From Candidatus Azophilus sp. (GTDB taxonomy: Bacteria; Pseudomonadota; Gammaproteobacteria; Pseudomonadales; Azotimanducaceae): a stretch of 64,000 nt of DNA. Of the stretch, positions 6,393-59,800 are shown piece by piece. The position numbers and the translations under genes are program-made. The notes beneath the pieces are model-generated. The model worked only from the letters and a program-made list of their open reading frames with translations. It searched no databases and was not told where the DNA came from. Location of the stretch: contig CBDFGJ010000003.1 in NCBI GenBank assembly GCA_965247035.1, positions 1,252,840-1,316,839 of the forward strand, read 5' to 3'. Positions within the stretch are counted from its first letter, which is position 1. The number at the start of each line of letters is the position of its first letter.

Positions 6393-6471
6393 GGGCTGAC
6401 TCCCTCGCCAATCCAGAATTGGGTCAGGGGCAATCTGCCACGGTCGGAGAGTGAATGAAAGCAGTCGATCA

Positions 6472-24625: not shown

Positions 24626-24907
24626 AAGCCGCGCTAAAGCGTTGGGTCTTTTGACCCAGCGGTTACTTATCCAACGCGGTCGGAAGGGCCAGTCAAACCC
24701 CGCTAGGGAGAGCTGGCGGTGACCGCGTGCTCGAATCATAGGTGCATGCTTTTTGCGGGCTGTGGATTATTTTCGTGCATTGTCATACCCCTACATTGCC
24801 GTGTTTTCTATTTGCGGCTTTTTTGCAGTAATCGGGGCTGCCGACTGAGCCGTGGCGCTAGGCGGCAAACAGTGACGCTTGTTCACAAGCGGCAAAACGG
24901 CGACACT

Positions 24908-25375: not shown

Positions 25376-25448
25376 CGTGCGCAGGCAGTGGCATCAGGCT
25401 CATTCGCACACTTTGCTTGTGCGTCGGAACAATGGTTGAGGTGGCGCC

Positions 25449-29551: not shown

Positions 29552-29677
29552 GTGAACAAAATAACCACCGACATACACAAAACAATCACCAACATTGGTT
29601 TTTGCCTCGGTGCTACTGGCAGCGATGAGCGTCGCCCCCCCCCAGCCAGCCACGCAGCAGAGAGGCAAGTGCTATGA
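29552..29677 (+). other. Upstream leader ORF: degenerate, frameshifted copy of the downstream gene's start and signal peptide; its stop overlaps the main ATG (ctATGAat)
   Basis: gtgaacaaaataacc...aaaacaatcaccaacattggtttttgcctcggtgctactggcagcgatgagcgtcgcc aligns with the real 5' end atgaataaaacaatcacccaattcgttttcgccgcggcgttgctggtggcgatgctggcgtcaacc. Its stop TGA (29675-29677) overlaps ATG 29674-29676. It is in the same frame as track ORF 29411..29677. Confidence 0.6.
29635..29643. repeat. Homopolymeric C9 tract 31 nt upstream of the autotransporter start codon, inside the leader ORF
   Basis: Counted directly: gtcg CCCCCCCCC agcc. Confidence 0.95.
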
Positions 29678-38511: not shown

Positions 38512-38543
38512 AGCGAGGCTCCGCCCGGGGCTTCGCTTTTTTT
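38512..38543 (+). terminator. Rho-independent terminator after the autotransporter gene
   Basis: Stem AGCGAGGC (38512-38519) pairs with GCTTCGCT (38530-38537), including one G-U pair. The loop is GC-rich and a T7 run follows (38537-38543). Confidence 0.7.
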
Positions 38544-38615
38544 GTCTGTCATCCCCGCCGCACCCCGTCATTCGCGGTGTCAAAGCGCCTCAATTCCCTC
38601 CCCCTGTGATATCCC

Positions 38616-38727: not shown

Positions 38728-38835
38728 ATGAACAAGCTAATCACCCGATTCGCTTTTGCCTCCGCGTTACCGGTAGCAATAGGTATCCCCCCGCACACAC
38801 AGCGGGGGCCAGGCATCATGAAAAAAGTGCTATGA
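38728..38835 (+). other. Upstream 35-codon leader ORF resembling a decayed signal peptide; its stop overlaps the giant ORF start (ctATGAac)
   Basis: ATG 38728 opens MNKLITRFAFASALPVAIGIPPHTQRGPGIMKKVL*, with TGA at 38833-38835 overlapping ATG 38832-38834. The N-terminus MNKLITRFAFASAL parallels the real MNKIVTQFALVSAL. It contains a C6 tract, (CA)4 and a G5 tract. Confidence 0.6.
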
Positions 38836-41800
38836 ACAAAATAGTCACTCAATTCGCTCTCGTCTCGGCGTTGCTGGTGGCGATGATGGCATCAATGGGC
38901 ACCGCCCATGCGCAAACGCTGCGTATCACTGGCTCCCTGACCCCATCGTTTACCGAGAATGTTGCCCGCGCCGCGGCAGTGTACGCCGCGAATGTCGACG
39001 GCGTCAGGGTCACCAGACCTGACTGGTCGGTCAGAGGTGAGAATGCGCACTTATTCTCGATTAGTCGTAGGAATGATGGTAACGGCTTATTGACCTTTAA
39101 CGAGCCGCCGGACTTTGAAGCCCTCGGTGCCACAGTCGAGATAAACGTCATCGCCACCCGGTCTGTCGGGGGTTCACTACAGACAGCTTCGCGGTCGGTA
39201 TTGGTCAAAATCATCAATGTGGATGAACCGGGCAGAGTCAACATCGCAGGTGAGTCACGGCTTGGGGCGACCTTGACCGCCACAGTGGATGACCCGGATG
39301 GTAATGTCAGAGACATCACTTACCAATGGTATCGAACATCGAGAGTCGATGTAACGGCGTTCCGCCTCATTGATGGTGAAACCTCCCGCACCTTCACGAT
39401 AAGGCCCCCAAGCGTCGATTTTAGCGGCGACCGCGACCGAAACATCCAAGTCAGGGTCGAATATAAGGACGTTCATGGCGACCAGACCGCCACCAGCCAC
39501 CAAGTCATCCGGGCAGAAGCAATAAGTTTCCCTTACTCCACAATCCACACAGCCCACACAATTGAAGCCTCGGGGCCCGCCAGAGTTAGCCCGGGGCAAT
39601 CTTATACCTACCGCGTGGGTGCGAATCAGGTCGTAGGAGTGAATACCCATGCGGTGGGCATATTCAGCAACATCAGTCGCCAGGGGCAGATCGTTGCCCG
39701 GCATACCGATTGCGCAGCACATAAGCCTTTGTTTTGTCTGCTTACCACCAGCACCAGCGCCTCTGACCGGTACTCCAATGCGAGGTTGACCTTCCGGGAT
39801 GGTGCATCGGACTACTTGACTCCCTCCTCGACCCGTCAATCCTGGACCTACACAATCACCGTCAGCCGCGACGTCGAGGATGGCGACACCATCAAACTGA
39901 TCTACGCCCACAGAAACACGTTGGCGGCGCCGAGCGGTCTTGGTATGGAGTTTTTCGACATAGTAGCGGTGGTTCCTATCCCTGAACCGCCGCGCAATCT
40001 GGCTGTGCGCGGCGCGGATGAAGAGGTGACGCTCAGTTGGAATGAGCCGAGCAATGTCGCAGATGCGGGCGTCCTTCGTTATGAATACCAACAAAGCACA
40101 ACTCCAGGAAACTTCAGCGGTGGCTGGAGTGCCATTGAAAGTGGCGATTCGATCAGCAACCTGAGAAACGGCGTCAGATACTACTATCAGTTGCGCGCCG
40201 TAACCACGAGGGGTGCGGGGGCCATGGTCTATGGTAATGCTGAGGTAGGACCCAGACCGGTCGTCACCTTTTTTCAATTGCCGACCGACATGACCGCCAC
40301 CATGGACTCCACGGCGACCATGAGATTCGCCACGCCAGTGCGTGGCTTGAGCCGGAATGAAGCGGAATGGAGGACTAATATCAGCACTACCAATGCCCGT
40401 ATCGTCAGCATATACAATGTTGATCAGGACAAAACCTACCGAGGTTCCGGTGCTGCACCGCTCGGTTTTGACGGGCTCACCGGAAGTTACGAAGTCACCC
40501 TTAGACCGCTTGCCGCCGGCGGAGTAAGCCTGGTCGTGCATAGCAGTTCAGTATTCAGCGCAGCGGGGCACCCAAGTACTATCTTTAGTGCCAGTGGTAC
40601 TGCGCTTTCGATGCCGCCGCCCGGCGTGCCGGTCAACTTCGCTGCGCACGCCGGCGATGGGAGCATCGGTTTGACCTGGGAGCAGCCGGTCACGGGCGGC
40701 GTGGTTGTCTCTTATCGCACCGAGTGCGTGGCTGGCGACAGTCGAAGCGTCAAGGACACACCAGAACTGGGCGTTATGCACACCAGCCTGGTCAACTCGA
40801 GGGAATACCGATGCACCCTGAGTGCGCAAAACTCGCAAGGAGAAAGCGCCGAAGCGGTTGCCACGGCACGCCCGCTTGTTGGTGAAGGCGTGGTGGTAGA
40901 TGGGACGAACTTTGACCCTGCGGGCGCCCGCGTATTCACACTCCGAGGCCCGGTCACGATTAGAGCCGGCGGTGTCTATAGATTTGAATTGAGCAAGCCG
41001 TTCGGCGATGTGGAACAAGATGGGCAACAAAGCGTGGCTTTGTATAGCGAGAATAATGCCGATTCCATCGCACTCGGCGGCAGTGGCTGTGGCAGTCGTT
41101 TCTGCTTCTCAACCAATTCCCCGGCCGGTGCCTACTCCGGCTTGGATGGTCAAGCCGACTCGGCCGGTAATAACCTGCAGGAAGGCGGAGCCTTCTGGAT
41201 ATTAACCCTCCATGTTGGCGAGGATGTCACCGAAGGCGAGCAGGTTTTCATCGGCATGCGAGAGCATGGCACATCGGAAGGCAACCGGCTTGGGCGGATG
41301 CTTACCCTGAATGTGGAGGTTGCCCAGCCGTCGCCGCCGCGTAATCTGCGGGTGATTAGTTCATCCGGACGCGCCACTTTGATTTGGGTGCAACCGGAAA
41401 GCGATGGCGGCACACCAGTCACTCGCTATGAATACCGCGTCAGCCAGAGCCCGGGAAACTACCCCCCGGACGCAGAGAGCAGATGGATGGGGATTCCTGA
41501 CAGCGCCTTCAAAATCCAGCATGTTGTGCCGAACCTGCAAAACAACACGCGCTATTACTTTCAAATACGTGCGGTCAACGTTGTGGGGGCCAGCCCGCCG
41601 TCTGGCGAGGTAAGCGTTGTCATCAGAGAAAGGCCCGAACTCGCCGTGCCATTTACTCTACCGGATGACATGATCGCGGGCAGAGCGTCCACGGTGACCC
41701 TCACCTTCGTGTCGCCGGTCAATGGTCTCGGCGTAGACCCTGCGGATTGGGTATCCGACTTTCTCGGCAGCAACAATGTGGTGATCAACAGCGTGCGCAA

Positions 41801-44800
41801 TGTTGACCAGAACAAAACCTACAACGGTCAAGGCACCGCGCCAGTTGACTTTGACCGCGAGACTCAAAGTTATGTCATCACCTTCACGCCACAGATATTC
41901 GGCACAACCAGCGTTGAGATCGGCATAGGCGGTGTGCGCATCGGTGGTCTTGACGGCGCGGCCGCGGATTACAATGAAATTCTATTCCTCGCCATCAACA
42001 ATTCTGGTGTACCGCTGCCACCCGCCGCCCCGACTAATCTTATCGCTCGGTCTTTTAGCACAGAGGATATTGAGCTCTATTGGGACCGTTCCATCGGTGA
42101 CAGTCCGGTGATTGATTACTCTGCGACCTGCACCACAACCGCCCCGTCAATTGATCCACCCTTAACCCATACCGCAACCACCACCGATACCGAGGTTGTC
42201 ATTCAGGGCGCGCGCCCTGATGCGGTATACGAATGTCGTGTGGTTGCTCGCAACCCGGGCGGCTCCAGTGGTTTTGCTTCGGCAATCATACGACCAGGCT
42301 TTACCGGAGAGCATACTGAAGACTATAGAGATGGCGGGTTCGGCATCCAACTCGTCGGCCACAGAACTGTCTTTGCGGGCACCACCAATAGATACCTTCT
42401 CCGCAAACCTTCCGGCGACATCACCAGAAACGATGATGTCGCCATCGGCATATACAGCAGGACGGCGGGCAAGGTTGGGCTCACCGGGCATGGTTGCACT
42501 TCGACTTTTTGTATGGAAGTCGACTCCACTATTCCCGGCACCCTCTTTACCGGCAGAGGTTACGCTGACGGTGCCGCCCAGTATCTGGATGCGGGCGGAA
42601 ATTTCTGGACCATTGAAATTAAGATTGCTGCAGATGCTCGCGACGGCGAAACGTTTGACTTCGCCCTAGTGCAAACGCCACGCGGCACGGACAAAACAAC
42701 ACGACTGTTCAGCGTCACCGTGCAAAGCTCGGCACCCCTCTCACCTGTATTGGCGAGCCCGGTCGCCGGGGATAAACAAGTCCGGTTGTCATGGCAGTTG
42801 AACTCCGTTCAGGTTGGTTCGACCATTGCCACCGAGTATCGCCAAACCACGACTGCGGGATCATATCCCCGCCAAACCAGCCCCTGGACACGCATCTCCA
42901 ATAGTGCCGCCAGCCGCCTGTCCTACACCGTCGGGGGGCTACGCAACAACATAAACTACTACTATCAGGTGCGCGCAATCAACGAGGTTGGTCCCGGCAC
43001 ACCGAGTAATGAGGTTTCAGTGCATGCCGGACCGAGGCCCCAACTCTCCGGCACCTTCGCCTTGCCGGACACAATGATTGCAGGCGACGAATACGATACG
43101 ACTGTCACCTTCGCCACGCCGGTCAACGGTCTTGGTATCAGCCCGTCAGACTGGGTGAGTGATTTCGCCTCATCTTCTAATATGCGGATTATTCGCGTAC
43201 ACAATGTTGATCAAAATAAAACCTACAACGGGCTGGGTAACGCGCCAGGGGGATATTCTGCCGAGACCAGAAGTTACACCATCACCTTCTCGCCAACCAA
43301 CCGAGGCTTTGCCATATTGACAATAGGAGCGGGAGCGGTGCGCATCGGTGATACCAATGACTTTTTCAGTACTCAGACCTTCAGCGCCAGAGAGGTCGCC
43401 GGAGCGCCGGAACTGCCGGGTACCCCCACTGATTTTGGAGCCATCCCCGGCGACGGCAGCATCACCCTGTTCTGGGGAGCACCGACCAGCGGTGGCACCC
43501 CCACTAGATACGAGACGAAATGCTCTGGCCCGACTTCTCCGGACACAACTACGGATACGGAAACCTTCACCCGCACCTTCACCGGGCTCACGAATGACAG
43601 GGAATATCGTTGCCAGGTGTTAGCCCACAACTCGGCTGGCAACCAGGGCACGTCGGAAATAACCGTTTGGCCACGCGTACTGGCTGCCGGCGTGGATGCG
43701 AGAACGGAAGATATTGCGGTGCGTGGCGTCACGTTTAATCTGGACGGTCCGACCACAATCCGACCCGGGAACACCTATCGTTATGAACTGCGCAAGCCTG
43801 GCGGCGATATCAGTGGTAATGAAAGCATCAGTTTTGCTATCAATTCCGACGACCAAAGCGTCGGCGCCGGCGGTGAGGATAACGCAGGCAATGATAACGG
43901 TTGCCGTGATAGCCGGTTTTGTATATCTACAACGAGCCAGATTGCCGCAACAGACCACCGTGCGATTGGATACACTGACAGTGCGGGATGGTTTTTGCAG
44001 GGAGGTGGAAATTACTGGGAATTTGATCTCGGGGTTAAATCGGCAGCGGTTAATGGCGATCAGATAGTCTTTACCATCAGAGGTCCGGCAGGCGATACCG
44101 ATACTCAAGCGATACTCACCGCCACCGTCGAACTTGCGTCCTCCAGCGCGCCGATCAATCTACGGGCGACCAGCGCACTCAACGGCGTCAGACTGATATG
44201 GGATGCGCCGGCTGACTTCGGTGGTCGAGCCATCAGTCGTTACGAGGTTCAGTATCGGCAAAGTAATACCAACGATGCTTGGAGAAGTGCCGACGCCGAC
44301 CTCACCGGCACCCGCACCCGCACGATCAGTGGTCTGGTTAGCCGACGGGCTTATGTTTTCCGCGTGCGCGCCATAACTTCCGTGGGTGTTGGCAACTGGT
44401 CCGATGAAGTCACCAGGGAGGCGGGAACAAGACCAGTCCTGACTTTTGACGCCACGCCGTCCAACACCGCTGTCGGTGCGCAGAGCAGGGTGGTGCTTGA
44501 GTTTGCAACTCCGGTTGAAGGTCTCGGTGTCAACCCGACTGACTGGATAGATGATTTTGCCGCTAGTACCAATGTGGACATCGACCGCGTGGAGAATGTT
44601 GCGGAAGGGGTGACCTACGACGGTGTTGGCGAGCCGCCGGCAAATTATCACCTCCCGACCAGATCATTTGTCATCTACTTCACACCACTTGCTCTCGGTG
44701 CTGCGGATATCACCATCCGCACGGGCGGAATACGAAGCGAACTTTTCAATGATGCACCGATTATCCTTGGCAGCACGGTGGATCGACTGGGGAGACCGGA

Positions 44801-47800
44801 CGCTCCGGTTAATTTTGTCATAGTTCCGAGCGACCAGACGCTCACTTTCAACTGGGACGCACCGACCACCCGCACGGTCATCCACAGATACGAACTCAGA
44901 TGTGATAGCCCCAACAGTGCCGTCCGGGTCACGGCCATTGACGCGCCAGCCACCACCGCCACCTTCACGGGCCTTATCAACGGGGATGAATATGTTTGTG
45001 ATCTCAATTCCGAAAACACCCACGCTGGCACGACTAAAGACAGCGGAAATGTAAGACGCAGAGGGCAACCACTGGAGGCCGTTGGTGTCTCGGAAAACGC
45101 GGAGCGGAGTTATCCCAATGGCAACGTGAGGTTCACCGTCAGCGGTGAAACTACTCTGCAGCCGGGCAGCACCTACACCTACGAACTCAGGAAACCCAAC
45201 GGCAACATTCATGGGGATGATGTATTTGCCGTCGGCATACGCAGCAAGACCGCCAACCAAGTGGGATATGGCAGCGCCTGCGGCGATACTTTTTGCCTTG
45301 TAGTCGAGCCGGGCCGCGCAACCTCGGACACGACGCCTTCGGGTTATAACGATGTTGCCGAGAGATTTCTGGAACAAGGCGGGGAGTTCTGGCAAGCCAC
45401 CGTTCTGGTCTCCCCAACCGCACCGACTGGGGCATCGGTTGAACTCTTCACCAGATTTGCCGGCACCAACACTGATGCGGCGGAGTCTCACAGAGCGTTC
45501 ATCCTCACCGTGAAACCCGCAAGCGTGGATATAAATTTCTCGCCCATCGGCAATGCCGGGCCAAACCAAATCCTGCTCAGCGGTACCCGGGTGAGCCTGA
45601 ACGGCAGTGCTTTTGATCAAAACAACGATCCCCTGACCTATAACTGGGAACACACCAGCACCGATGGTGTTGAGCCAACCACGCCAATCAGCATCATCGA
45701 TAGCACCAAAGCCGGCGCATCCTTCATCGCGCCGATCGTGGACAAACCCACCCAATATCGATTCACCCTGAGGGTGGCAGATGCCGACACTGCGCACTCC
45801 GACCGTGTAGACATAGTAGTGGCACCGAGTGGCTCGATTGTCATCCCCGAATACATGTCGGCATTCACCATTGCCGGTTCGTCAAATCTGGGTAGCGGGT
45901 TGAATACTTTCACCGTCAAGCGCACCTACGGCAATTACTCCAGCCAAATCCGCGCAACCCTCAGCACCGATTCGTCCACTCCTAATCAGTATTCCGTGTT
46001 TGTGGACGGAAAGGCATACGGCCGTATTGAAGATACTGACACGCTCGGGGCATTTGTCTGGAAGATACCACTGCCATCAAAAAATCAATGGCGAATCGGG
46101 ATTGACCCAACCTCCGGGGCGCGGGTGGGTGACACGCTGACCCTGGGCATGGCAACCGATAACCCCGCTCGCTACTATCAACCAACCAGGACGCTGCGTT
46201 ATCGCACGCAAGTAAGTTTGATTGCCAACGCCGGTGCCGATCAACTCGCGGCGAACGGTGATCGGATAACTTTGGATGCAAGCGACAGTAGCGGCGATTC
46301 GGTCGCTTATTCCTGGCGACAGACCGGCGGACACATGGTTACGCTGACAAATGCGGACACTGCCACGCCATTTTTCATCGCACCGCGCCTTGGTGAAATG
46401 ACCGATCTGGTATTTGAATTGACGGCGACAGACGCCGCCAGCACCACCGAAACCGACACCGTAATCGTCTCGGTGGTGCCGCCCGGTGCAATCATCATCG
46501 ACGACCCCGAACGTGCGGCAGGGCAATCGGCGGTGTTCACGCTGGAAGGTCCCACCACGCTGATACCCGACACTCCCCAGACCTACACCTTGCGACTCAT
46601 TCATGGTGGCTATACCGAATCAGGCACTCTATCCGAGCAGATTGGCGTGGGTATATTCAGCGATGTTGCCGCCGATGACAGCAAGTTCTCGCTCGCCATA
46701 GATCCGGTGGTTGCCGGCGGGGTGAACCCAATAACCTGTAATAGTTGTGGCGTATTTGCTTCGGCCGGCGGGCTGGCGGCGAACTCGCAAAACATCTGGG
46801 AGCTCACCGTTACCGCATCCGGCGCGGCGGTAGAAGGCGATCAGGTCCAATTCGGTTTGGTCACCTTTACCCAGCCGGCGCAAGCACATGTGCCCACCAT
46901 GACGCTGACTACCGGGAAGAGCGCGCAGAATAACCCGCCTGCCATTCTCGGTGTAACGACAGTGCAGTATGCCGAGAATGACAGCGTCCTCGTAGCGGAG
47001 TTCACCGCCACCGATGCCGAGCGGGATGACATCACCTTCGGTTTGACCGGTCTGGATGCGGGTTTCTTTGAAATCGGCAACGGCGGTGATGACCACGGCA
47101 AATTATTTTTCCAGGTCAACCCGGATTTTGAGAATCCGGACCGCTTTGACATCAACGCCGGCGCCACGGACAACACCTATCAGGTAACCATTACTGCCAC
47201 TGATAACGGCAGCCCGCAGGCGGTCGGCAACCATCCGGTGGTCATCACGCTCTCCGATGTCAGCGAGCCGGGCACGGTTACCGTCACCGGCAACAGTCAA
47301 GTCGGGCAGGAGTTGACCGCCACTTTGCAAGACGGAGATGCGATTCAAGGCGAAGTGAGTTGGCAATGGCAACGCAGCAATGTGCCGCCTGTCTATAACG
47401 ACATCGACAGTGCCACCGAAGCGATCTACACTCCGACCAACGACGATCAAGGCCGAATCCTGCGTGCCAGGGCGAGTTACACCGACAGCCATGGATCTCA
47501 GAGTGCCGCCGATTTGTCCAGAAGGATAGTGAGCGCAGTCGATCTGGTTGCAACGATCGCTGAGTTGGGCACACCCACAGCCGGTCAGCCGGCAAGCGTG
47601 AGAGTTGATTTCACCTCGATGGTTACCGACTTGACGCTGGAAAGATTCTCTGCCACCAACGCCAACCTGAACTCCCTCGCCGGTAGCAACACCGAGTATG
47701 TCGTCGTCTACACCCCGGTCACGGAGGACGCGGTAACCCTGAGCCTTGCCGCCGATTTCGCCAAAAACAGGGATGGCACCAGCAACCCGGCAACGGCAAG

Positions 47801-50800
47801 CGGCACGGCGGTGATGGCAGTCGCCGAATCATCATCGGCCATCCCGAGTTTTACCGCCGAAGCTACCTTTGTCGGCATCACCACCGGTGAGTGGAGTTAT
47901 GACAACGAATTCAAAACTGCCATAGCGGACTTGATACGCAGGGGGGCGCAATCGGCTGATGTCAGGATAAACGGCCTCCGTGCTACCGCCACTGCACTGA
48001 CGGTGGAATTTGAAGTAGTAGCAGCCGATGTCACCCGACTCAACGCCCGTTTGTTGGCATACAACGCCCTGCCTGCCGCAGCATTCAGCCGCACCTTGGC
48101 TAAGGTCGCCGCCGGTGCCACCAGCGTCACCACCACTATCGCCACAGCATCGCTGCTCACCGCCAACGACAAGCCGGTCGCCAGGGCGGGTTCTAACCAA
48201 ACGGTATTGCAAGGCGAAGGCGTGACGCTGGACGGCGGCGCCAGCACCGACTCCGATGGCAGCATCACGACCTACGCCTGGCGGCAAATCAGCGGCACCG
48301 TGGTTGCCTTGACTCGTGGAGCCACCGCCAGTCAGTCGGTATTCACCGCTCTGCACTCTCCCGAGACTTTGATTTTTGAACTGACCGTAACCGATAACCA
48401 TGGCGACATCGACAGCGAGCAAATAATGGTCACCATCCTGCCGGACGCTGATGCGAGCCTGTCCGGTTTGACCATTTCCTCAGGCACCCTGGCTCCCTTG
48501 TTCTTGTCCACCCATCCGACCTATACCGCGGAAGTGCCGATTGGAGTGGAAAGAATCACCGTTACACCGACCGTGAACAACGATGGTGCAACCCTGATGG
48601 TGAACCGCGTTGACTTGGAAAGGGGCAGTGCCAGCCAAGCGATTCCGCTGACCGTCGGCGTCCCCGCCGAGGTTGTTATCAAGGTCACCGCCGAGGACGG
48701 CGAAGCATCGCAAACCTATACGGTCACCGTCACCCGCACATCTAACGCGGGCCCAAGAATCACCGGCACTAGACAGGTAGGATATAACGAAAATCACGAT
48801 GGTACTGTGGCGACCTACACTGCGGTCGATGTCGAGGGAGATGCCTTTGCCTGGTCGCTCGGCGGTGAAGGCGCGCCCTTCTTCTCAATTGATCGCGGTG
48901 TCTTGACTTTTAGCGACCCACCGGACTTTGAATACGCGGAACACGACAACACCTACGACATACTCATCACCGCCACCGAAACCAATCGAGTTCCGCCGGC
49001 GGTGAGCGAACTGCCGGTAACGATCACGGTCATCAATGTGAATGAACCGGGCAGCGTCATCGTCACAGGTGATTTGCGGGTCGGGGCAACCTTGACCGCC
49101 GAACTGGAGGATCCGGATGGTGGTATCCTTGAAACCGAATACCTCTGGGCACGCCAGCCGGTCAGCGCGTCGGGTTTCCAGAGGATTGCCGGGGAAACGA
49201 ATCAGACCTATACCCTGACCACAGACGATATCAACCACATAATAAGATCCAGAGTTAATTATAAAGACAGATTTGGTGGCGCGTTTGTTACCATCGACAC
49301 AGAAACCGAAGCCATACTCAGCCGGGAATACGACACTGGCAGAAATACCAACAGCGGAGATTTCACTATCAAAGCCGAAGGTCCCTCCACGATTAGACCG
49401 GGGGAAAATAATTTCACCGTGACGGTAGTGCGAGGCTCTTACTCTAGTTCGGAATTTCATGCGGTGGGTATCTACAGCGATGTCGCTGTCTCCGGCGAGG
49501 AAACCATTGCCCGTAGTGTGGATTGTGGGCGGCTACAGCCTTTATTTTGCCTCCGTTCCAGCAGTAGCAGTGGCATCACCGAATATTCCAATGCGGGATT
49601 GACCTACGCTGATGGTGCGGCGGACTATTTGAATGTCACCGGCTCTCGTAATAATGCCTCCGGCGCAACCTGGACTTACACCATCATTGTCAGCCCCAAG
49701 GCACTGCATGACCAGGTCATTAGCCTGGCTTACGCCACCACTGACGAGTTTGTTCAGGGCAGCACTGCCTACAAGTTTTTCGACCTGACAGTGGAGGTTC
49801 CGGTTCCTGAAGCACCGCGCAATCTGGTTGTGCGCGGCGACGATGAAGAGGTGACGCTCACTTGGGATGCGCCGGCAAATGTCGCAGATGCGGGCGTCCT
49901 TCGTTATGAATACCGACAAAGCACAATACCAAGAAACTTCAGCGGCGTCTGGAGTGCCATTGAAAGTGGCGACGCCATCTTTAATCTAGAAAACGGCATC
50001 AGATACTACTATCAGGTGCGCGCCGTAACCTCGAGGGGAGAAGGAGCTGCCGCCGAAGCGAGCGCGGAGGTAGTACCCAGACCCGAAGTCGCTTATTTTG
50101 AGTTGCCGACCGACATGGCCGCCACCATGGCCGCCACGGCGACCATGACATTCGCCACGCCGGTGCGTGGCTTGAGCCGAAATGAAGCGGAATGGAGGAC
50201 TAATATCACCACTACCAATGCCCGCATCGAAAGTATACGCAATGTTGATCAGGACAAAATCTACCGAGGTATTGGTGCCGCACCGCTCGGTTTTGACGGG
50301 CTCACCAGAAGTTACGAAGTCACCTTTAGACCGCTTACCGCTGGGCGAATAAACCTGGTCGTGCATAGCAGTTCAGTATCCAGCGCAGCGGGCCACCAAA
50401 ATGTTGTGTTTAGTGCCAGTGGTATTGTGCGCTCGATGCCGCCGCCCGGCGTGCCTGCCAACTTCGCCGTGCGCGCCGGCGATAAAAGCATCAGCATGAC
50501 CTGGGAGCAGCCGGTCACGGGCGGCATGGTTGCCACTTATCTCACCGAGTGTGTGTCCGGCGACAGTCGAAGCGCCATGGACACATCAGAACTGCGCGTT
50601 ACGCACACCAGCCTAATCAACACCAGGCAATACCGATGCACCCTGAGTGCGCGAAACTCGGAAGGCGAAAGCGCCCAAGCGATTGCCGAGGCACGTCCGC
50701 TTGTGGATGAAGGCACGGCGGTAGATGGGACAAACTTTAACCCTGCGGGCAACCGCGTATTCACAATCCGAGGCCCGGTCACGATTAGAGCCGGCGGTGT

Positions 50801-53800
50801 CTATAGATTTGAATTGAGCAAGCCGTTCGGCGATGTGGAACACGATAGGCAACAAAGCGTGGCTTTGTATAGCGAGAGTAGTGCCGATTCCATCGCCCTC
50901 GGCGACAGTGGCTGTGGCAGTCGTTTCTGCTTCTCAACCGATTCCTCGGTCGATGCCTACTCCGGCTTGGATGGTCAAGCCGACTCGGCCGGTAATTACC
51001 TGCAGAAGGGCGGAGCCTTCTGGATGTTAACCCTCCATGTTGGCGAGGATGTCACCGAAGGCGAGCAGGTTTTCATCGGCATGCGAGAGCATGGCACATC
51101 GGAAGGCAACCGGCTTGGGCGGATGCTTACCCTGAATGTGGAGGTTGCCCAGCCGTCGGAGCCGCGTAATCTGCGGGTGATCGGTTCCTCCGGACGCGCC
51201 ACTTTGATTTGGGTGCAACCGGAAAGCGATGGCGGCACACCGGTCACTCGCTATGAATACCGCGTCAGCCAGACTGCAGGACAGTATTCAAACGCCCAGG
51301 GCAGATGGATGGCGATTCCTGACAGTGCCTTCAAAAACCAGTATGTTGTGCCGAACCTGCAAAACGGCAGACGATATTACTTTCAAACGCGTGCGGTAAA
51401 CGTTGCGGGGCCGGGCCAGCCATCGGTTGAGGCAAACGTTGTCATCAGAGAAAGGCCCGAACTCGCCGTGCCATTTACTCTACCGGAGGACATGATCGCG
51501 GGCAGAGCATCCACGGTGACCATCACCTTCGTGTCGGCGGTCAATGGTCTCGGCGTAGACCCTGTTGATTGGGTATCCGACTTTCTCGGCAGCAACAATG
51601 TGGTGATCAACAGCGTGCGCAATGTTGACCAGAACAAAACCTACAACGGTCAAGGCGCCGCGCCGAGTGGCTTTGATCGCGAGACTCGAAGTTACGTCAT
51701 CACCTTCACGCCACAGATATTCGGCATAACCAGCGTTGAGATCGGCATAGACGGTGTGCGCATCGGTGGTCTTGACAGCACCATCGGGTATGGCAATGAA
51801 AACCTGCTCACCGCCATCAGCCATTCTCTGGAACCGCCGCGACCCTCCACCCCCACTGGCCTGGTCGCTCGACTAGACGGTGATGACGATATTGCTCTGG
51901 ATTGGGATCCTGCACCCCAAGACGACACTGTGGTTGATTATCTGGTGACCTGCACCACTACCAACTCGGCAATTGATCCGCCCTTAATCCATACCGCAAC
52001 CACCACCAATACCGAGGCTGTCATTGTGGACCCGCGCCTTGCAGCGGAATATGAATGTCGCGTGATTGCCCGCAATCAGGGCGGTTCCAGTGGTCATGCT
52101 TCAGCAACAATCGTGCCACGCTCATCTGAAATAATACCGGATGAAACCTTGACCTATTCGGACCCGGATAGCAACTTTGCCATCCAATTGAGCCGTGGTC
52201 CCAGAACGGTCTCTCCGGGCGAAACCTATCGATACCATCTCCGGCTTGCCGACGGCTCTATCGATGAGGTCACCCATGTCGCCATAGGTATATACAGCAG
52301 GACGGCGAATAAGGTTGAACTCATTGACAATGATTGCTCTTTGACTTTCTGCATGGATGTTGCCAACACCGGCGCTAGCGGCACCCTCCTTACCAACAGA
52401 GGTTACGCTGACGGTGCCGCCCAGTATCTGCAGAGGAGCATGATCGGCAATAACTGGACCCTTGTAATTGAGATTGCTGCTGATGCGGCTGACGGTGAAA
52501 CATTTGACATCGCCGTAGTGCAAACGCCACGCGGCGTGGACAAAACATCACCACTGCTCAGCGTCATCGTGCACGCCGAGCCACCCCTGCCACCTATTTT
52601 CATGGATCCGGTCGGTGCGGATGGCGAGGTCACGTTGGCATGGGGGCCGAACACTGAAAAAAACAACGCGATTGCCGGATATGAGTATCGCCAAACCACG
52701 ACTGCGGGATCATATCCCAGCCGAACCAGCCCCTGGACACGCGTCTCCAACAGCGCCGCCAGCAGCAGAGTCTGGAACATCACCGGGCTACTCAACAATG
52801 TGCGCTACTACTACCAGATACGTGCGATTGGCGAGACCACTGGCGCCGGCTCGCCAAGCGCAGAGAAATCAGTCGCGGTTGGACCCAGGCCCCAACTCTC
52901 CGGCACCTTCTCCTTGCCGGGCGGAATAGTTGCGGGCGAAGAAGCCAATACGACTGTCACCTTCGCCACGTCGGTCAACGGTCTTGCTATCAGCCCGACG
53001 GACTGGGCGAGTGATTTCCGCAACTCTGTTAATACGCGGGTTATTCGCGTACGCAATGTTGATCAAGATAAAACCTACAACGGGCTGGGTAACGCACCAG
53101 AGGGGTATGCTGCCGAGACCAGAAGTTACACCATCACCTTCTCGCCAATGAACGACGGCAATACCAGTTTGACGATAAGCGAGGGAGCGGTGCGCATCGG
53201 TGACAGCAATGACTTTTTCAGTGCCCGGCAATTCTCCGCCCGCGGGAGTGCCAGTAGGCCGGCAAGACCGGGTGCCCCCATCGATTTTGGAGTCATTCCC
53301 GGCGACGGTAGCGCCACCCTCTTCTGGGGAGCACCGACCAGCGGTGGCACCCCCACCGAATACGAGGTGCAATGCGTGGTGGGCTCGACTGGTACGGGGA
53401 CTCGGACGGATACGGAAACCTTCACCCACACCATCACCGGGCTCACCAATGACAGGGAATATGTTTGCCATGTGGTATCCGTCAACTCTGGGGGCAGCAG
53501 CCCGCGCACACCGGAAATAAGCGTTTGGCCACGCGCACTGACTGTTGGCGTGGATGCGACAACGGAAGATATTGCGGTGCGTGGCGTCACGTTTAATCTG
53601 ATCGGTGCGACCACACTCCGACCCATGCGCGCCTATCGTTATGAACTGCGCAAGCCCACCGGCGATATCAATGGTGATACAAGCATCAGTTTTGCTATCA
53701 ATTCCGCCGAAACAAGCGTCGGTGCCGGCCGTCAGGATGACCCAGGCGATGATAACGGTTGCAGTAGCCGATTTTGTATATATACAACGAACCGCACCGA

Positions 53801-56800
53801 GATTGCCAAACTAGACCACCGTCCGATTGGATACACTGATAGTGCAGGATGGTTTTTGCAGGATGGTGGAAATTTCTGGACATTTAGTCTTGAAGTTAAA
53901 TCGGAAGCCGTTAATGGCGATCAGATAGTCTTTACCATCAGAGGTCCGGCAGGCGATACCGATATTCAAGAGATACTCACCGCCACCGTCGAAATTGTGG
54001 CTTCCGGCGCACCGACCAATCTGCAGGCGACCAACCAGGGCAACGACATCAGACTGTCATGGGATGAGCCCGATGACAATGGTGGTGAAAGCATCACTCG
54101 TTACGAGGCTCAGTATCGGCAAAGGAATACCAACGACGCCTGGAGTTCTGTGAGAGCCCCAAGGACCGACAACCCCAACGTCGTGATCACGAATTTGGTT
54201 AGCATGCAGGGATATGTTTTCCGCGTGCGCGTCATAACCTCGGTGGGTGTTGGCATCTGGTCCGACGAAATCGTCAGGGCGGCGGGAACAAGACCAGACC
54301 TGACTTCGCCCGCCGGCTTGCCGGACGACATGGCTGTCGGTGCGCAGAGCAGGCTGGTGCTTGATTTTGCAGCCCCGGTCGAAGGTCTCGGCATCAACCC
54401 GACTGACTGGATAGATGATTTTTCCGCTAGTACCAATGTGATCATCGAGCGCGTGGAGAATGTTACTGAAGCGGTGACCTACGATGGTGTTGGCGACCCG
54501 CCGGCAAATTTTCACCTCCCAAGCAGATCATTTGTCATCCACTTCACGCCCATTGCTCTCGGTGTTGCGGATATCACCATCCGCACGCGCGCAATACGAA
54601 GAGAACTTTTCAATGATGTACCGATTGTGCTTGGCGGCGAGGTGAATCAACTGGGCAGACCGGACGCTCCGGTTAATTTTGTCGTAACTTCGGGTGCCAA
54701 TACGCTCATCCTCAACTGGGACGCACCGGCAACCGGCACGGTCATCCACAGATACCGGGCAAGATGTGTAGATTCCAGCAGAGACGTCGAGCGGAGCGCG
54801 ACCATTGACGCGCCAGCCACCACCACCACTTTCACTGGCCTGACCAACGGAGAAGACTATTTTTGTGAACTCTTTTCCGAAAACACCCACGCCGGCACGA
54901 CTAAAAACAGCGGGAGTGTGAGACGTAGCGGGCGACCCCTGGCGATCAGCGGCGCCTCCTCGTCATCGGATCAGAGTTATCCCAATGGCAACGTGAGGTT
55001 CACCGTCAACGGTGAGACCACGCTGGATCGGAATGGCGACTACACCTACGAACTCAGGAAACCCGGCGGCAACATTCATGGGGATGATGTATATGCCGTC
55101 GGCATACGCAGCAAGATCGCCGATCAAGTGGGGTATGGCGACGACTGCGGCAATACTTTTTGCCTTGAAGTCCACACTGGCCGCGAAATTTCGCACACGC
55201 CGCCTTCGGGTTATCTTGATGTTGCCGAGAGATTCTTGCAACGAGGCGGGAATTACTGGCGCATCACCGTGCAGGTCGCCACATTTGCACCGACTGGGGC
55301 ATCGGTTGAACTCTTCACCAGATTTGCCGGCACCAACAATGATGCGGCGGAGTCTCACAGAATGCTCTTTCTCACCGTGCAGCCACCGGGTGCTGATGCA
55401 AATATCTCGCCCGAAGCCGATGCCGGTGAAGACCAAATCCTGCTCAGCGGTGTCCAAGTGAGCCTGAGCGGCACTGGCTTCGACCAGAATGGCGACGAAC
55501 TGACCTACGAGTGGGAACACACCAGCACCAATGGTGTTGAGCCAAGCCAGCGGATCAATATCACCAATAGCACCGAAGCCACCGCATCCTTCACCGCACC
55601 GAGCGCGAGTTCGACAGACGCCATTGAGTATGAGTTCTCCCTGAAGGTGGAAGATGCCACTGCTGCCGACTTTGACACAGTATCCGTTGTAGTGGTGCCG
55701 GATGGTTCAATCATCATTCCCCAACGCAACCTGGCATTCGCCATTGAGGGACCCACAACACTGGAACTGGGTGATAATCAATTTACCCTGATTCGCCTCT
55801 ATGGAGGTTACACCAACGTTCACGCTGGCAATATAGAAACTCAGGTCGGGCTGGTCCTCAGTACCGCACTGGAACCAAATCTGGCACGCGCATTTGACCT
55901 CGTTCCGCCTGCCGGTTTTTTCAGCAGTAAAAATGTGGTTGAAAACGGAGCCTTCGGCAGGTATGCCGTGGAAGCAGTGCTTACATCCAACATCTTCGGG
56001 CGCGTTTTCAAGGTAAACGCCAAGACAAGCGCAAGAACGGGCGACCTCCTGACTCTGGGCTTGGCAACCTATCAACCGGATCGCTTCTGGCAACCGACCT
56101 TGGCATTGCGTTATCAAGAACTGGAGGAATTAGTCGCCGACGCCGGTGCCGATCAAATCGTGCCGAGCGGTGCGTCGGTAGCGTTAAACGCAGGCGACAG
56201 CACCGGCGATTCAGTCGGTTATGTCTGGCGACAGACCGAGGGGGCTCCCGCGGTTACGCTGACAGGAGAGAACACTGCCACCCCGACCTTCACCGCGCCG
56301 GCTGTGACCGCAATGACTGACCTCGTATTTGAGGTGACGGTGACCGATAGCACGACCAGCAGTCAAACCGACACCCTGACCATCTCGGTGGCGCCGCCCG
56401 ATGCGATCATCATCAACCACCCCGGTCGTGCCGGCGGACAAGCGGCGGTGTTCACGCTGGAGGGTCCCACCACGCTGATACCCGGCGCCCAGCAGGACTA
56501 CACCCTGAACCTCATCCACGGTGCCTATACCCAGGCAGCGATTCGGTCTGAGCAGATTGGCGTGGGCATATTCAGCGATGTTGTCACCGATGGCAGCAAG
56601 TTCTCGCTCTCCATAGACCCGGCAGTTGCCGCGGGTCTGGCTCCACTAACGAACTGTGGTTGCGGCGAATTTACTTCCGCCAGCGGGCTGGCACCGAACG
56701 TGCAAAACACCTGGGCTCTCGCCGTCACCGCAACAAACGAGGCGGAAGAAAACGATCAACTCAGGCTCGGTTTGGTAACTTTTGCACCGACAGAATTAGC

Positions 56801-59800
56801 CCATCAACCGTTTTTGACGCTGATCACCGGGCAATCTGAAGCCAACAACCCGCCGGCAATTAGCGGTGGACAAACACACAACTACGCCGAGAACAGCGAT
56901 GCCGTAGTGGCGACCTTCGCCGCCACCGATGCCGAGGGAGATGCCTTCACCTTCGGTTTGACCGGTCTGGATTCGGGTTTATTTGAAATCGGCAACAATG
57001 ATGCCGAGGGCGCCATCAATGATGCCGTGGGTGCTTTGATTTTCAAACGCATGCCGAATTTTGAGGATCCGGCACGCTTTGATTCCGTCACCGAGATCTT
57101 TGACAATACCTATCAGGTAACCATTACTGCCACTGAGGACGACGAACCGACGGTGGTCGGCACCTATTCGGTGGTCATCACGGTCACCGATGTCGACGAG
57201 CCGGGCACAGTTACCATCGCCGGCAGCGGTCAAGCCGGGCAGGAATTGACCGCCACTTTGCAGGACGAGGATACGATTGCAGGCGAAGTGAGTTGGCAAT
57301 GGCATCGCGGCAACCAGCCCGACAATGGCAGGGATAACCCCATCAACAGTGCCACCGCCGCGGCCTACACTCCGACCAGCGACGATCAAGGCCGAATCCT
57401 GCGTGCCAGGGCGAGTTACACCGACACCCATGGTGCTAAGACCGCCTCCGCCGTGACCGAAGCGATAACCATGGAGAACATACTCCTGGCAACCATCGCT
57501 GAGTTGGGCGTATCCACAGTGGGTCTGCCGGCGAGCGTGAGAATTAGTTTCTCGGCAGCGGTTACCGGCTTGGCGACCGGCCACTTCGCCATCACCAACG
57601 CCAGCATCGCATCCCTCGCCGGCAGCAACACCGAGTATGTCCTGATTTACACCCCGGCCGGGCCGGGCAGGGTAACCCTGAGCCTGGCAGCCGATAGTGT
57701 TCAGGATAGTGAGCGTAGAGGAAACGTTGCAGCAACGGCAAGTGGCACGGCAGAGGCGGAAGTAGCGATATCATTGCCGACCATCCCGAGTTTCACCGCC
57801 GCCGTCTCCTTTGACGGCATCACCACCGGTGAGTGGAGTTTTGACGACCAATTCAAAACGGCCATAGCGAGTTTCATCACCGGAGTAACGGCCGCTGATG
57901 TCAAGATACTGGGCCGCAGTGCCACCGCCACTGATCTGGCGGTGAATTTTGAAGTAGTAGCACCCGACCAGGAAAACATTGACGCTCATGTGCAAACATA
58001 CAACGCCGTGGCCACTGCAGTATTCAACCAGACTTTATCTGCAATCGTCGCCGCTGCCGCTGCCACCGGTGTTACCACCACTACCGCCATGCCGGGCGCC
58101 ACGCTGGCAAGCACCGACGCGACCTTGTCCCGCCTGGCGGTTTTCCACAAGGATGGAAGTCAGGCAACCGTGACCCCGGCACTTACCGCCGGCACATTTG
58201 ATTACGCCGTGACCCTGCCGTTTAGTTCGGATACCTTTACCTTCACGGCGCGGGGTGACGGCGACGCAACCATAACCACCCAGGGGCAGACATTTCCCAG
58301 CGGCCAGTCCAGCCCTGATATTGCCGTGCCGGTTGGCGCCACCACCGTGAATTTTCTGGTAACCGCCGAGGACGGCAGCAGCACGCAACCCTACACCCTC
58401 CACGTCACCCGCACCGCGGTGGCAACTGATGCGACCCTGTCCGACTTGATTATTTCGGCAGGCATCTTGTCGCCTGAATTCGATTCTGCCGCCGCCGAGG
58501 GTACGGCTTACGCCATCACCGTGGGGCGTGAGGTGTCAAGCGTCACGGTTACGCCGACCGTGAATAACGCTTTCGCGAGGGTGACTGTGAACAACGTCGC
58601 GGTGATCAGTGGCCAACCCTCAAATGATATTGCCCTGAACCTGGATGCGGAGACCAGCATCACCACCACCGACATCACCATCGTGGTCACCGCCGAGGAC
58701 GGCACCACGAGAAATTATGTGATAACCGTCACCCACATATCGAACTTCCCACCGATGCTTGACGGTAATCCTGCGCGGGATTATCTGGAGACCGATACCG
58801 GCTCTGTGGATTATAAAATAACAGATGAGAATGCCAATGACGAAGACAGAGCCAGTTGGGTAATCAGTGGAGGCATGGATGCGGCTCTCTTCCGCATCAG
58901 GGCTATCTCCACAGACACGGCCAGCGTGACTTTCAAGCGCCAGCCGGACTTTGAAACCCCGCACGATGCAGACCGGGATCAAGTATACGAGGTCACCCTG
59001 ACCGCCACCGATGCCGGCACGCCGCCGTTGAGTGTCACTGTGGAGGCAAGGATAACGGTCACCGATGTGGATGAGGATGGCGCGGTGATTATTGAAGGCA
59101 TCGCGCAGGTCGGCAAGACCCTGGAAGTCATCCTGACCGACCCGGATGCTGTCACCCAGACCAACTCGAATGGCACGGTTGCTGCTGCTGACATCACCCA
59201 TAAATGGCAAAATTCGCCGTCCGACAGCCCCGACTACGCCGACATCAGCGGTGCCACCGAAGCAACCTACACCCTGAAAGAAAGTGATGCCGGCAGGACC
59301 ATTCGGGTCATGCCCACTTATACCGACACGCACGGCTCCAAGACCCTCACCAGCGCGGAGACCAACGCCGTGGCACTCGAAACCGCATCCGCCGCACCGG
59401 GCATCGCCTTGGTGGACACCGGTTTTAGTAACAGCGATGGCATCACCAACAATGGTGTGGTGAATGTGACGCTGGCGAACGATTTTGTTCTCGACAGGGA
59501 CACCTGGCATTACTCCACCGATGGCAGTGCCCCCGACACCGCCGGCACCAACCCCGATTCCGGCACCGCCGCCAGTTTTGATTTGGGCGACGAGGGCTTG
59601 GACTTGGCAGACGGCACCTATCAAATCCGCGTCCGCCAGACCATCGATGGTACCGTGTCTGTTATCGCCTCTTTGCAGATGACGCTGGACCAAACCGCAC
59701 CGACGGTTGTGACCTTTGACGACCCCGCCGAAGGCGTGTTTGGGGTGCCGCAGTTGCTCGACGTCACCTTCTCTGAGCCAGTAACGGGTTTTGCATTTGG

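What the first reader, a model, noticed from the sequence alone, without database searches (positions are those of the whole stretch)
39520..45520. Recurring ~140-150-aa Cys-containing domain with no family I can name, embedded in a 4x repeated four-domain module
Seen: each module consists of four parts. The first is FN3a (PPRNL..V.LSW..P...G....RYEY.........W..I......L.N..RYY.Q.RAV). The second is an Ig-like unit (RP.L...F.LP..M..G.......F..PV.GLG..P.DW...F......I..V.NVDQ.KTY.G.G..P). The third is an FN3b variant with a conserved Cys pair: SYRTEC...EYRCTL, DYSATC...VYECRV, RYETKC...EYRCQV and RYELRC...EYVCDL. The fourth is a domain that begins G(P).T[IL]R.G..Y.[FY].L.KP.G[DN]I. It has a central C-x(2-5)-FC motif (DCAAHKPLFC, GSGCGSRFCFS, GHGCTSTFCME, DNGCRDSRFCIS, GSACGDTFCLV), then G..FW....[LV], and ends ...L[TS][LV].V. 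Copy A alone has five instances, counting the one before module 1. Inference: this is probably a disulfide-stabilised extracellular domain, possibly a ligand-binding unit displayed repeatedly. I do not recognise it as cadherin, FN3, PKD or Big.
Basis: partly seen in the sequence, partly recalled or inferred. Interest (0 to 1): 0.65.

Follow-up and report, generated by a model that had tools for sequence, protein, structure and literature searches.

The report
Unclassified disulfide β-sandwich domain, giant adhesin
A giant secreted surface protein of an uncultured marine-type gammaproteobacterium repeats, 14 times, a roughly 135-residue β-sandwich domain with a conserved cysteine pair that matches no catalogued family; it is real and very rare, but it is an ordinary kind of adhesin building block.

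Summary
One open frame runs from ATG 38832 off the window end at 63998 (over 8,380 aa) and starts with a Sec-type signal peptide. It contains the four-part module FN3, Ig-like unit, FN3 with a Cys pair, and domain X. The module occurs four times in each of two diverged macro-repeats of about 9.8 kb (59% aa identity).

Domain X occurs 14 times, not about 10. Ten copies carry C-x4-7-[F]C. Two carry a relocated CxxC or CxC. Two degenerate copies have no Cys.

Every X copy here and in relatives has exactly 0 or 2 Cys, apart from one fragmentary relative (P0026). All 40 Cys of the protein lie in homologous pairs, which points to disulfides.

Pfam, NCBIfam and PDB sequence searches give no family. 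AlphaFold gives a confident all-β, 11-strand model (pLDDT 88). Foldseek finds only generic Ig, cohesin or DUF11-like sandwiches (TM at most about 0.5).

In 1.84 billion representative proteins only about 9 carry the domain, including one close relative with 7 copies. Several remote relatives carry it at the N-terminal tip, with the Cys pair conserved.

The nearest sequence signal is a sub-threshold match of the N-terminal hairpin to NCBIfam choice-of-anchor V and to DUF11.

Verdict: a new, rare sequence family of a familiar kind, a disulfide-stapled β-sandwich adhesin module. Ligand binding is only inferred.

The parts
38832..63998 (+). Giant surface-protein gene. It is over 8,380 codons long and open to the window end, so the C-terminus is not seen. 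It begins with a Sec-type signal peptide (38832-38912).
   Evidence: Pfam finds fn3, K319L-like PKD, Cadherin-like, Cadherin, Big_12 and AIR9-type Ig domains.
39024..48761 (+). Macro-repeat A, which contains 7 X copies and the 4x four-domain module.
   Evidence: blastp of aa 104-3349 against aa 3380-6682 gives 59.5% identity. DNA 39949-45873 against 49774-55746 is 81% identical.
48852..58760 (+). Macro-repeat B, the diverged tandem duplicate of A.
39552..39983 (+). X0-A, the domain X copy before module 1. Cys motif CAAHKPLFC.
39984..40250 (+). FN3a of module 1.
   Evidence: Pfam fn3, 26.8 bits against a cut-off of 25.
40251..40610 (+). Ig-like unit of module 1 (8 copies in all). It has no Pfam family.
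   Evidence: No Pfam hit. The AF2 model was built from the module-2 copy (41631-42008) with the 8-copy alignment A4: pLDDT 88.9. Best PDB TMq for that model is 0.40-0.46.
40611..40889 (+). FN3b of module 1, with a Cys pair (aa 671 and 700).
   Evidence: Pfam fn3, 30 bits. Cys positions.
40926..41324 (+). X1-A, Cys motif CGSRFC. This is the copy that was modelled.
   Evidence: AF2 pLDDT 87.8, pTM 0.84, 11 strands.
42336..42734 (+). X2-A, Cys motif CTSTFC.
43725..44150 (+). X3-A, Cys motif CRDSRFC.
45126..45524 (+). X4-A, Cys motif CGDTFC.
45858..46229 (+). X5-A, a degenerate copy between PKD domains with no Cys.
   Evidence: Weak jackhmmer hit. It aligns over the whole length. The P0001 counterpart scores E 1.7e-14.
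46527..46928 (+). X6-A, a divergent copy. The usual Cys pair is lost and CNSC appears in a later loop.
49362..49808 (+). X0-B, Cys motif CGRLQPLFC.
50751..51152 (+). X1-B, Cys motif CGSRFC.
52179..52589 (+). X2-B, Cys motif CSLTFC.
53583..54008 (+). X3-B, Cys motif CSSRFC.
54993..55394 (+). X4-B, Cys motif CGNTFC.
55752..56129 (+). X5-B, a degenerate copy with no Cys.
56442..56843 (+). X6-B, a divergent copy with CGC in the later loop.

Best explanation
Domain X is a genuine, previously uncatalogued extracellular β-sandwich (Ig-like) domain of about 135 residues. A short-range disulfide (C-x4-7-C) most likely staples the loop that leads into its central β-strand.

It is one building block of a Sec-exported surface fibre or adhesin of more than 0.85 MDa, from an uncultured gammaproteobacterium related to Pseudomonadales. 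The gene grew in steps. First came a four-domain module (FN3, Ig-like unit, FN3 with disulfide, X with disulfide). The module was then amplified four times. Finally the whole unit of about 9.8 kb was duplicated.

Inferred mode of action: the protein crosses the inner membrane unfolded through Sec, and the periplasmic Dsb system oxidises the Cys pairs. The rigid, protease-resistant sandwich domains then form an extended stalk. X is presented many times as an adhesive or binding surface, giving multivalent attachment to host matrix or to other cells.

Shown here: the domain, its repeats, the fold class, the pairing of Cys, its rarity and its absence from the family libraries searched. Inferred: the disulfide itself, export to the surface, and any binding role.
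For: - **Repeat significance.** Twelve copies score E 1e-36 to 1e-62, and two degenerate copies are also found.
- **Fold.** The AF2 model is confident: pLDDT 87.8, pTM 0.84, all-β with 11 strands.
- **No known family.** Pfam, NCBIfam and PDB sequence searches find none.
- **No close structure.** Foldseek TMq is 0.36-0.48 to cohesin, VH or nanobody domains, TTHA1873 and integrin Ig-like domains, and at most 0.56 in BFVD, including a DUF11 protein at 0.50.
- **Cysteine pattern.** 30 of the 31 X copies examined have 0 or 2 Cys at homologous sites; the exception is the fragment P0026. The giant has 40 Cys in about 8,390 aa, all in pairs: 10 X pairs, 2 relocated pairs and 8 FN3b pairs.
- **Conservation at distance.** The Cys pair, the N-terminal T-W-x-L-x-G-x-x-x-V-x-x-G-x-x-Y-x-Y motif and the C-terminal A-x-x-G-x-x-I-x-x-G...L-x-I-T-V motif are conserved in proteins only 20-30% identical.
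- **Tip position in relatives.** In P0014, P0021, P0022 and P0023 the domain directly follows the signal peptide.
- **Export.** A signal peptide is present. Adhesion-type neighbours include FN3, PKD, cadherin, Big_12 and AIR9-Ig.
- **Ecological context.** Cadherin- and FN3-containing attachment genes are reported as enriched in sponge-associated MAGs (PMC8163846). The RpoA relatives retrieved are all uncultured gammaproteobacterial MAGs; that two of them are sponge MAGs is from my memory only.
Against: - No binding ligand, conserved pocket or catalytic motif was identified.
- Four of 14 copies lack the canonical Cys pair, so the disulfide is not essential to the fold.
- dN/dS between macro-repeat copies is high (0.44-2.0). 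This fits a loosely constrained spacer as well as a diversifying binding surface.
- The C-terminus, and so the anchoring or secretion route, lies outside the window.
- The environment of origin could not be confirmed, because the window's proteins are not on record.
Confidence: 0.7

Rival explanations
1. X is only a structural spacer. It is one more rigid β-sandwich bead that lengthens the stalk, as Big or FN3 repeats do in other giant adhesins, and has no ligand-binding role of its own.
For: - It is interleaved regularly with FN3 and Ig-like beads.
- Constraint is relaxed: dN/dS is about 0.5-2 between paralogues.
- Two copies have degenerated yet are retained.
- No conserved pocket or known binding motif was found.
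Against: - Remote homologues carry a single copy at the N-terminal tip, right after the signal peptide. That is the usual place for a binding head, not a spacer.
- The motif [YF]-x-D-x-A-x-x-x-[FY]-L-x-x-G-G-x-[FY]-W is conserved across the main copies.
Confidence: 0.4
2. X is not a new family. It is an extremely diverged member of the DUF11, CARDB or choice-of-anchor V group of bacterial surface β-sandwich domains.
For: - 6 of 13 window copies and 8 of 14 family members hit NCBIfam NF041895 (choice-of-anchor V). The best is E 1.5e-4 and 21.9 bits.
- The profile search pulled in DUF11-repeat proteins through the same N-terminal hairpin.
- hhalign against DUF11 repeats gives E 2e-4 over 25-29 columns.
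- DUF11 repeats also carry a mid-domain Cys pair.
- A Tupanvirus DUF11 protein reaches TMq 0.50.
Against: - Every match covers only the first 25-50 residues.
- Scores are 13-22 bits against a cut-off of 42.
- hhalign probability is only 45-49%.
- Pfam DUF11 gives no hit even at E of 10 or less.
- The C-terminal two thirds show no detectable similarity.
Confidence: 0.3
3. X is a cohesin-like docking module. It pairs with dockerin-like tails to assemble extracellular multi-protein scaffolds.
For: - The top Foldseek PDB hits include Clostridium perfringens cohesin modules 2w1n, 2vo8 and 2jh2.
- The one close relative, P0001, ends in two dockerin or EF-hand-like repeats: DGDSDDVSLDDAKFLYYAYAL and DLNGDGDTDDEDAAVLYYSFAL.
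Against: - TMq is only 0.36-0.44 with rmsd 6-7 Å, and nanobodies score equally well.
- There is no Pfam cohesin or dockerin hit.
- No dockerin-like motif occurs anywhere in the window.
Confidence: 0.06
4. The repeats are an artefact: an assembly collapse or expansion, or a decaying pseudogene.
For: - dN/dS is near 1 in several segments.
- The relative's gene is followed by an IS transposase.
Against: - A 25.2-kb frame with no stop codon at 57% GC cannot persist by chance.
- Copies are well diverged, 81% DNA identity between macro-repeats and 15-40% aa identity between modules, so they are not assembly duplicates.
- An independent metagenome carries the same architecture.
Confidence: 0.02

Closest known systems
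NCBIfam NF041895, choice-of-anchor V domain (and NF041894, the MXAN_6652 family)
   Same: Both are domains of about 150 aa in secreted or surface-anchored bacterial proteins. There is a recurrent sub-threshold match to the first β-hairpin(s) of X in 8 of 14 family members.
   Different: Scores are 13-22 bits against a cut-off of 42, and only profile positions about 38-86 of 150 are matched. The rest of X is not recognised. Membership was tested and not met.
DUF11 / TIGR01451 'conserved repeat domain' and CARDB-like β-sandwiches
   Same: They share the N-terminal motif G-P-x-T-V-x-P-G-x-x-[VY]-T-Y-T, a mid-domain Cys pair, tandem use in giant surface proteins, and an Ig-like sandwich fold.
   Different: hhalign probability is 45-49% over 25-29 columns only. 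Pfam DUF11 gives no hit. The Cys spacing differs (x4-7 against about x6-12), and the C-terminal halves differ.
Cohesin modules (for example C. perfringens 2w1n, 2vo8) and Ig V-type domains
   Same: These are the best Foldseek matches, and they are β-sandwiches of similar size.
   Different: TMq is 0.36-0.48 with rmsd 6-9 Å and 9-14% identity. X has no B-F disulfide and core Trp in the Ig arrangement, and no cohesin Pfam hit.
Giant bacterial repeat adhesins (LapA, MpIBP, SiiE, SwmB type)
   Same: All are proteins approaching or exceeding a megadalton, built from tens of β-sandwich repeats, with modular amplification and a presumed adhesion role. AIR9/SWM-type Ig, cadherin and PKD domains are present.
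   Different: From general knowledge, RTX-type adhesins lack a Sec signal peptide and are Cys-poor. This protein has an N-terminal Sec-type signal peptide and 20 conserved Cys pairs. Its C-terminus is not visible, so an RTX or T1SS signal cannot be checked.

Membership tests
Pfam fn3 (PF00041), for the FN3a and FN3b parts of the module | Score above the Pfam gathering threshold (25 bits) | tested here: met
   FN3a scores 26.8 and 45.6 bits. FN3b scores 30.0 and 36.3 bits. There are 8 fn3 stretches in the first 2,500 aa.
Any Pfam-A family, for domain X | hmmscan hit over the domain at or above the gathering score | tested here: not met
   13 copies were scanned at E of 10 or less. Only three single-member chance-level hits appeared: Nodulin 0.039, DUF7927 0.1 and ASF1 0.12.
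NCBIfam choice-of-anchor V (NF041895) | Score of at least 42 bits over the 150-position domain model | tested here: not met
   Scores are 13.6-21.9 bits, and only profile positions about 38-86 are matched.
DUF11 / TIGR01451 repeat | Full-length profile similarity to DUF11 repeats | tested here: not met
   hhalign of A1 and A2 against an alignment of 12 DUF11 repeats gives probability 45-49% over 25-29 aligned columns. No Pfam DUF11 hit.
Cohesin | Close structural superposition (TM above 0.5-0.6) or a Pfam cohesin hit | tested here: not met
   TMq 0.36-0.44, rmsd 6.3-7.1 Å. No Pfam hit.
Solved structures (PDB), any | Sequence-profile hit at E below 1e-3 | tested here: not met
   The best E-values are 0.8 (A1) and 0.29 (A2), both to unrelated proteins.
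Disulfide-bonded extracellular domain | The two Cys are present or absent together, and the protein is exported to an oxidising compartment | tested here: met
   30 of 31 copies have 0 or 2 Cys at homologous positions; the exception is the fragment P0026. A Sec-type signal peptide is present. The bond geometry itself could not be tested, because no coordinates are returned.
RTX / T1SS giant adhesins | C-terminal RTX repeats and a T1SS signal, with no N-terminal Sec signal peptide | not testable with these tools
   The C-terminus lies beyond the window end. The N-terminus looks like a Sec signal peptide, which argues against membership.

The most novel reading that the evidence does not exclude
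X defines a symbiont-restricted binding module stapled by a disulfide. It would be the host-matrix- or glycan-recognising head of small tip adhesins, displayed 14 times on a megadalton fibre. Alternatively it would be a cohesin-like partner for the dockerin-like tail seen in the one close relative, which would make these giants self-assembling extracellular scaffolds outside the cellulosome world.
Probability: 0.1. Interest if true: 0.55.

Novelty: new variant of a known kind. Interest (0 to 1): 0.3.

Why it matters
It adds a well-defined and very rare sequence family to the set of β-sandwich modules that build giant bacterial surface proteins. About 9 proteins among 1.84 billion representatives carry it. 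The family has a confident predicted fold, a conserved Cys pair and clear boundaries, so it could be curated as a new Pfam or InterPro entry.

The strict pairing of all 40 Cys in a protein of over 8,000 residues that carries a signal peptide is also a useful marker. It suggests this class of giant protein passes through the periplasm, unlike the Cys-poor RTX adhesins.

It does not change how such proteins are thought to work, and no function can yet be assigned.

Tried and rejected
- **Word-indexed search of 5.8 billion proteins with the window copies (A1).** No hit. With remote members added (A2) it found only three short fragments related to P0014 and P0021.
- **PDB sequence-profile searches with A1 and A2.** Nothing.
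- **Foldseek against BFVD.** Only generic Ig-like hits.
- **hhalign of X against the module's own Ig-like unit.** Unrelated, probability 0.2%.
- **hhalign against DUF11 repeats.** Only the N-terminal hairpin aligns.
- **Short-stretch hits in the representative search.** P0002-P0010, P0012, P0013, P0016-P0019 and P0024 are repetitive SprB, FN3, DUF11 or Calx-type proteins. They match only 25-50 profile positions and were rejected as family members. P0004 repeats match weakly over most of the profile at 14 bits, but they look like SpaA or prealbumin-type repeats with differently placed Cys.
- **Dockerin-like motif search in all six frames of the window.** None.
- **Finding the window's own contig through exact protein look-up (2909-aa ORF, SecY).** Not on record.
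- **Neighbourhoods of rpoA in 34 related genomes.** No X domain within ±10 kb.
- **JGI metagenome and IMG/VR scans with X1-to-X2.** No relatives.
- **Literature searches.** 'Azophilus' returned no papers, and the 'choice-of-anchor' titles and abstracts listed nothing evidently relevant to domain V.

Full report
**What is in the sequence**

The window holds a ribosomal-protein gene cluster: L3, L4, L2, L5, L6, SecY, S4, RpoA and L17. After it come an aldo-keto reductase, three T6SS baseplate-type genes (gp25/TssE-like, TssF, TssG), and a 2,909-aa Ig-repeat protein at 29674-38403.

Last comes one enormous + strand open frame from 38715 to the window end. Its ATG is at 38832 and encodes a typical Sec signal peptide, MNKIVTQFALVSALLVAMMASMGTAHA|Q. 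The gene runs off the window after about 8,390 codons.

RpoA is 74-78% identical to that of uncultured Pseudomonadales and 'Candidatus Azophilus' MAGs, and to two unclassified gammaproteobacterial MAGs. I recall those two (RHO2_bin_33 and SB0675_bin_3) as sponge MAGs, but that is from memory only.

**Check of the observation**

A jackhmmer search seeded with one copy of the unnamed domain (X) finds 12 copies in the giant, at domain E-values of 1e-36 to 1e-62, plus one weak copy. The weak copy's counterpart in the second macro-repeat was found by alignment. The neighbouring 2,909-aa protein has none.

The module is confirmed:
- FN3a and FN3b pass Pfam's fn3 threshold.
- The 'Ig-like unit' (8 copies) and X have no Pfam hit.

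The architecture of each macro-repeat is: X0, then [FN3a, Ig, FN3b, X] four times, then PKD, X5 (degenerate, no Cys), PKD, X6 (Cys pair relocated to CNSC or CGC), then cadherin, AIR9-type Ig, Big_12 and further domains.

The macro-repeat of about 9.8 kb is present twice, at 39024-48761 and 48852-58760. The copies share 59.5% aa identity overall and 81% DNA identity across the module region. They are diverged paralogues, not an assembly artefact.

There are therefore 14 visible copies rather than about 10, and 10 of them have C-x(4-7)-FC.

**Cysteines**

Every X copy examined has exactly 0 or 2 Cys, apart from one fragment. That covers 14 copies in the window, 7 in the close relative P0001 and 10 in remote relatives. 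The fragment, P0026, reads DWSPEQFC at the motif and has a second Cys elsewhere.

The whole visible protein has only 40 Cys:
- 10 X-motif pairs,
- 2 relocated X pairs,
- 8 pairs in FN3b.

There are none in the last 2,445 residues. Where the canonical pair is lost, both Cys are lost together. In an exported protein this co-occurrence is the classic signature of disulfides. The bond itself is inferred, because the structure tool returns no coordinates.

**Fold**

AlphaFold2 was run with the 13-copy alignment. It gives a confident all-β model of 11 strands (pLDDT 87.8, pTM 0.84).

Foldseek against the PDB returns only generic sandwiches: C. perfringens cohesins, TTHA1873, VH or nanobody domains, and integrin Ig-like domains. 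TMq is 0.36-0.48, rmsd 6-9 Å and identity 9-14%.

BFVD gives the same picture. A Tupanvirus DUF11 protein reaches TMq 0.50 and the best hit reaches 0.56. X is thus an Ig-like β-sandwich without a close solved relative.

**Family searches**

- Pfam on each copy at E of 10 or less: nothing meaningful.
- PDB sequence profiles: nothing.
- NCBIfam: a recurrent weak hit to choice-of-anchor V (NF041895). It appears in 6 of 13 window copies and 8 of 14 members of the wider family. The best is 21.9 bits against a cut-off of 42, always limited to the first 25-50 residues.
- DUF11: the same N-terminal hairpin (G-P-x-T-V-x-P-G-x-x-Y-T-Y-T) attracts DUF11-repeat proteins in the profile search. It gives hhalign probability 45-49% over 25-29 columns against DUF11 repeats.
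- The module's own Ig-like unit: X is unrelated to it.

A distant superfamily link to DUF11 or choice-of-anchor V remains possible.

**Distribution**

HMMER against 1.84 billion representative proteins gives 24 hits at E of 1e-3 or less. Only about nine are real.

P0001 (2,890 aa, E 5e-199) has the same seven X copies and the same module order. It comes from an ENA metagenome contig, and the gene is followed by a DDE transposase and then a 2,689-aa continuation.

P0011, P0015, P0014, P0021, P0022, P0023 and P0020 match over the whole domain at 20-30% identity. They keep the C-x4-6-[FLV]-C pair and the N- and C-terminal motifs.
- In P0014, P0021, P0022 and P0023 the domain sits directly after the signal peptide.
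- In P0011 and P0015 it follows an FN3.
- In P0020, an S8 peptidase with HYR repeats and a LamG domain, it occurs twice.

All are singleton clusters without names. The wider-profile word search added three fragments. JGI metagenomes and IMG/VR gave nothing. The family is real but very rare.

**How it most likely works**

Shown: a repeated, confidently folded β-sandwich with a conserved Cys pair, in a giant protein that carries a signal peptide and is otherwise made of adhesion-type domains.

Inferred:
- The protein is exported through Sec and the Cys pairs are oxidised in the periplasm.
- The sandwiches then form a long stalk or fibre.
- X serves as a repeated adhesive or binding surface. The hints are its tip position in small relatives and the loop motif [YF]-x-D-x-A-x-x-x-[FY]-L-x-x-G-G-x-[FY]-W, conserved in the main copies.

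A pure spacer role is nearly as likely. dN/dS between macro-repeat paralogues is high (0.44-2.0). dS is mosaic, from 0.02 in X1 to 1.2 in X5, which suggests gene conversion together with relaxed or diversifying selection.

A cohesin-like role is a long shot. It rests on weak Foldseek hits and on the dockerin-like tail of P0001, and no dockerin-like motif exists in the window.

**Novelty and verdict**

This is a new, rare sequence family of a familiar kind: a disulfide-stapled Ig-like module in a giant bacterial adhesin. It merits a family entry and perhaps a structure, but it would not surprise a specialist. Interest 0.3.

Noticed in passing
window 24719-28113 (+): Three T6SS baseplate-wedge genes sit alone between the ribosomal alpha operon and aldo-keto reductase on one side and the giant Ig-repeat genes on the other. 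They are gp25/TssE-like (24719-25375), TssF (25449-27071) and TssG (27058-28113). TssF and TssG score below the NCBIfam equivalog cut-offs. No sheath, Hcp or VgrG gene was seen among the window ORFs examined.
   Followed up: partly
window 40251-40610 and 7 further copies (aa 513-632, 973-1098, 1441-1559, 1906-2019 and the B counterparts): The 'Ig-like unit' of the module is itself unclassified. It has no Pfam hit. Its AF2 model is confident (pLDDT 88.9) and shows a β-sandwich with one short helix. The best PDB Foldseek matches are S-layer SbsC domains and a cohesin, at TMq of only 0.40-0.46.
   Followed up: yes
window 38729-38836 (+, other frame): A short upstream ORF encodes MNKLITRFAFASALPVAI..., which resembles the giant's own signal peptide (MNKIVTQFALVSALLVAM). 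Its stop codon overlaps the giant's start codon as ATGA. It may be a relic of a duplicated 5' end, or a leader peptide.
   Followed up: no
window 28581-29336 and 29674-38403 (+): A 251-aa ORF with Bact_surface_Ig-like and PKD domains precedes a 2,909-aa protein. That protein carries the same domain types (7 Bact_surface_Ig-like, PKD, Big_12) and has no X domain. The small ORF may be a split N-terminal piece of the large one. An intrinsic-terminator-like hairpin at about 38514-38545 separates the large protein from the giant gene.
   Followed up: partly
window 39552-46928 against 49362-56843: Between the two macro-repeats, per-domain dS ranges from 0.02 (X1) to 1.2 (X5), and dN/dS from 0.44 to 2.0. 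This mosaic pattern suggests patchy gene conversion together with relaxed or diversifying selection on a surface protein.
   Followed up: partly
L035 1780-20452 (relative P0001): The closest relative encodes one macro-repeat (2,890 aa) that ends in two dockerin or EF-hand-like repeats. It is followed by a DDE transposase and then a 2,689-aa protein with PKD, FN3 and cadherin domains. The giant gene may be split or rearranged by an IS element in that genome.
   Followed up: partly
window about 47830-48140 and about 57760-58060 (aa about 3040-3140 and about 6350-6450): A region of about 100 aa with helical-looking sequence follows each Big_12 domain (SFTAEATFVGITTGEWSYDNEFKTAIADLIRRG...). It received no Pfam assignment in the whole-protein scans.
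   Followed up: no
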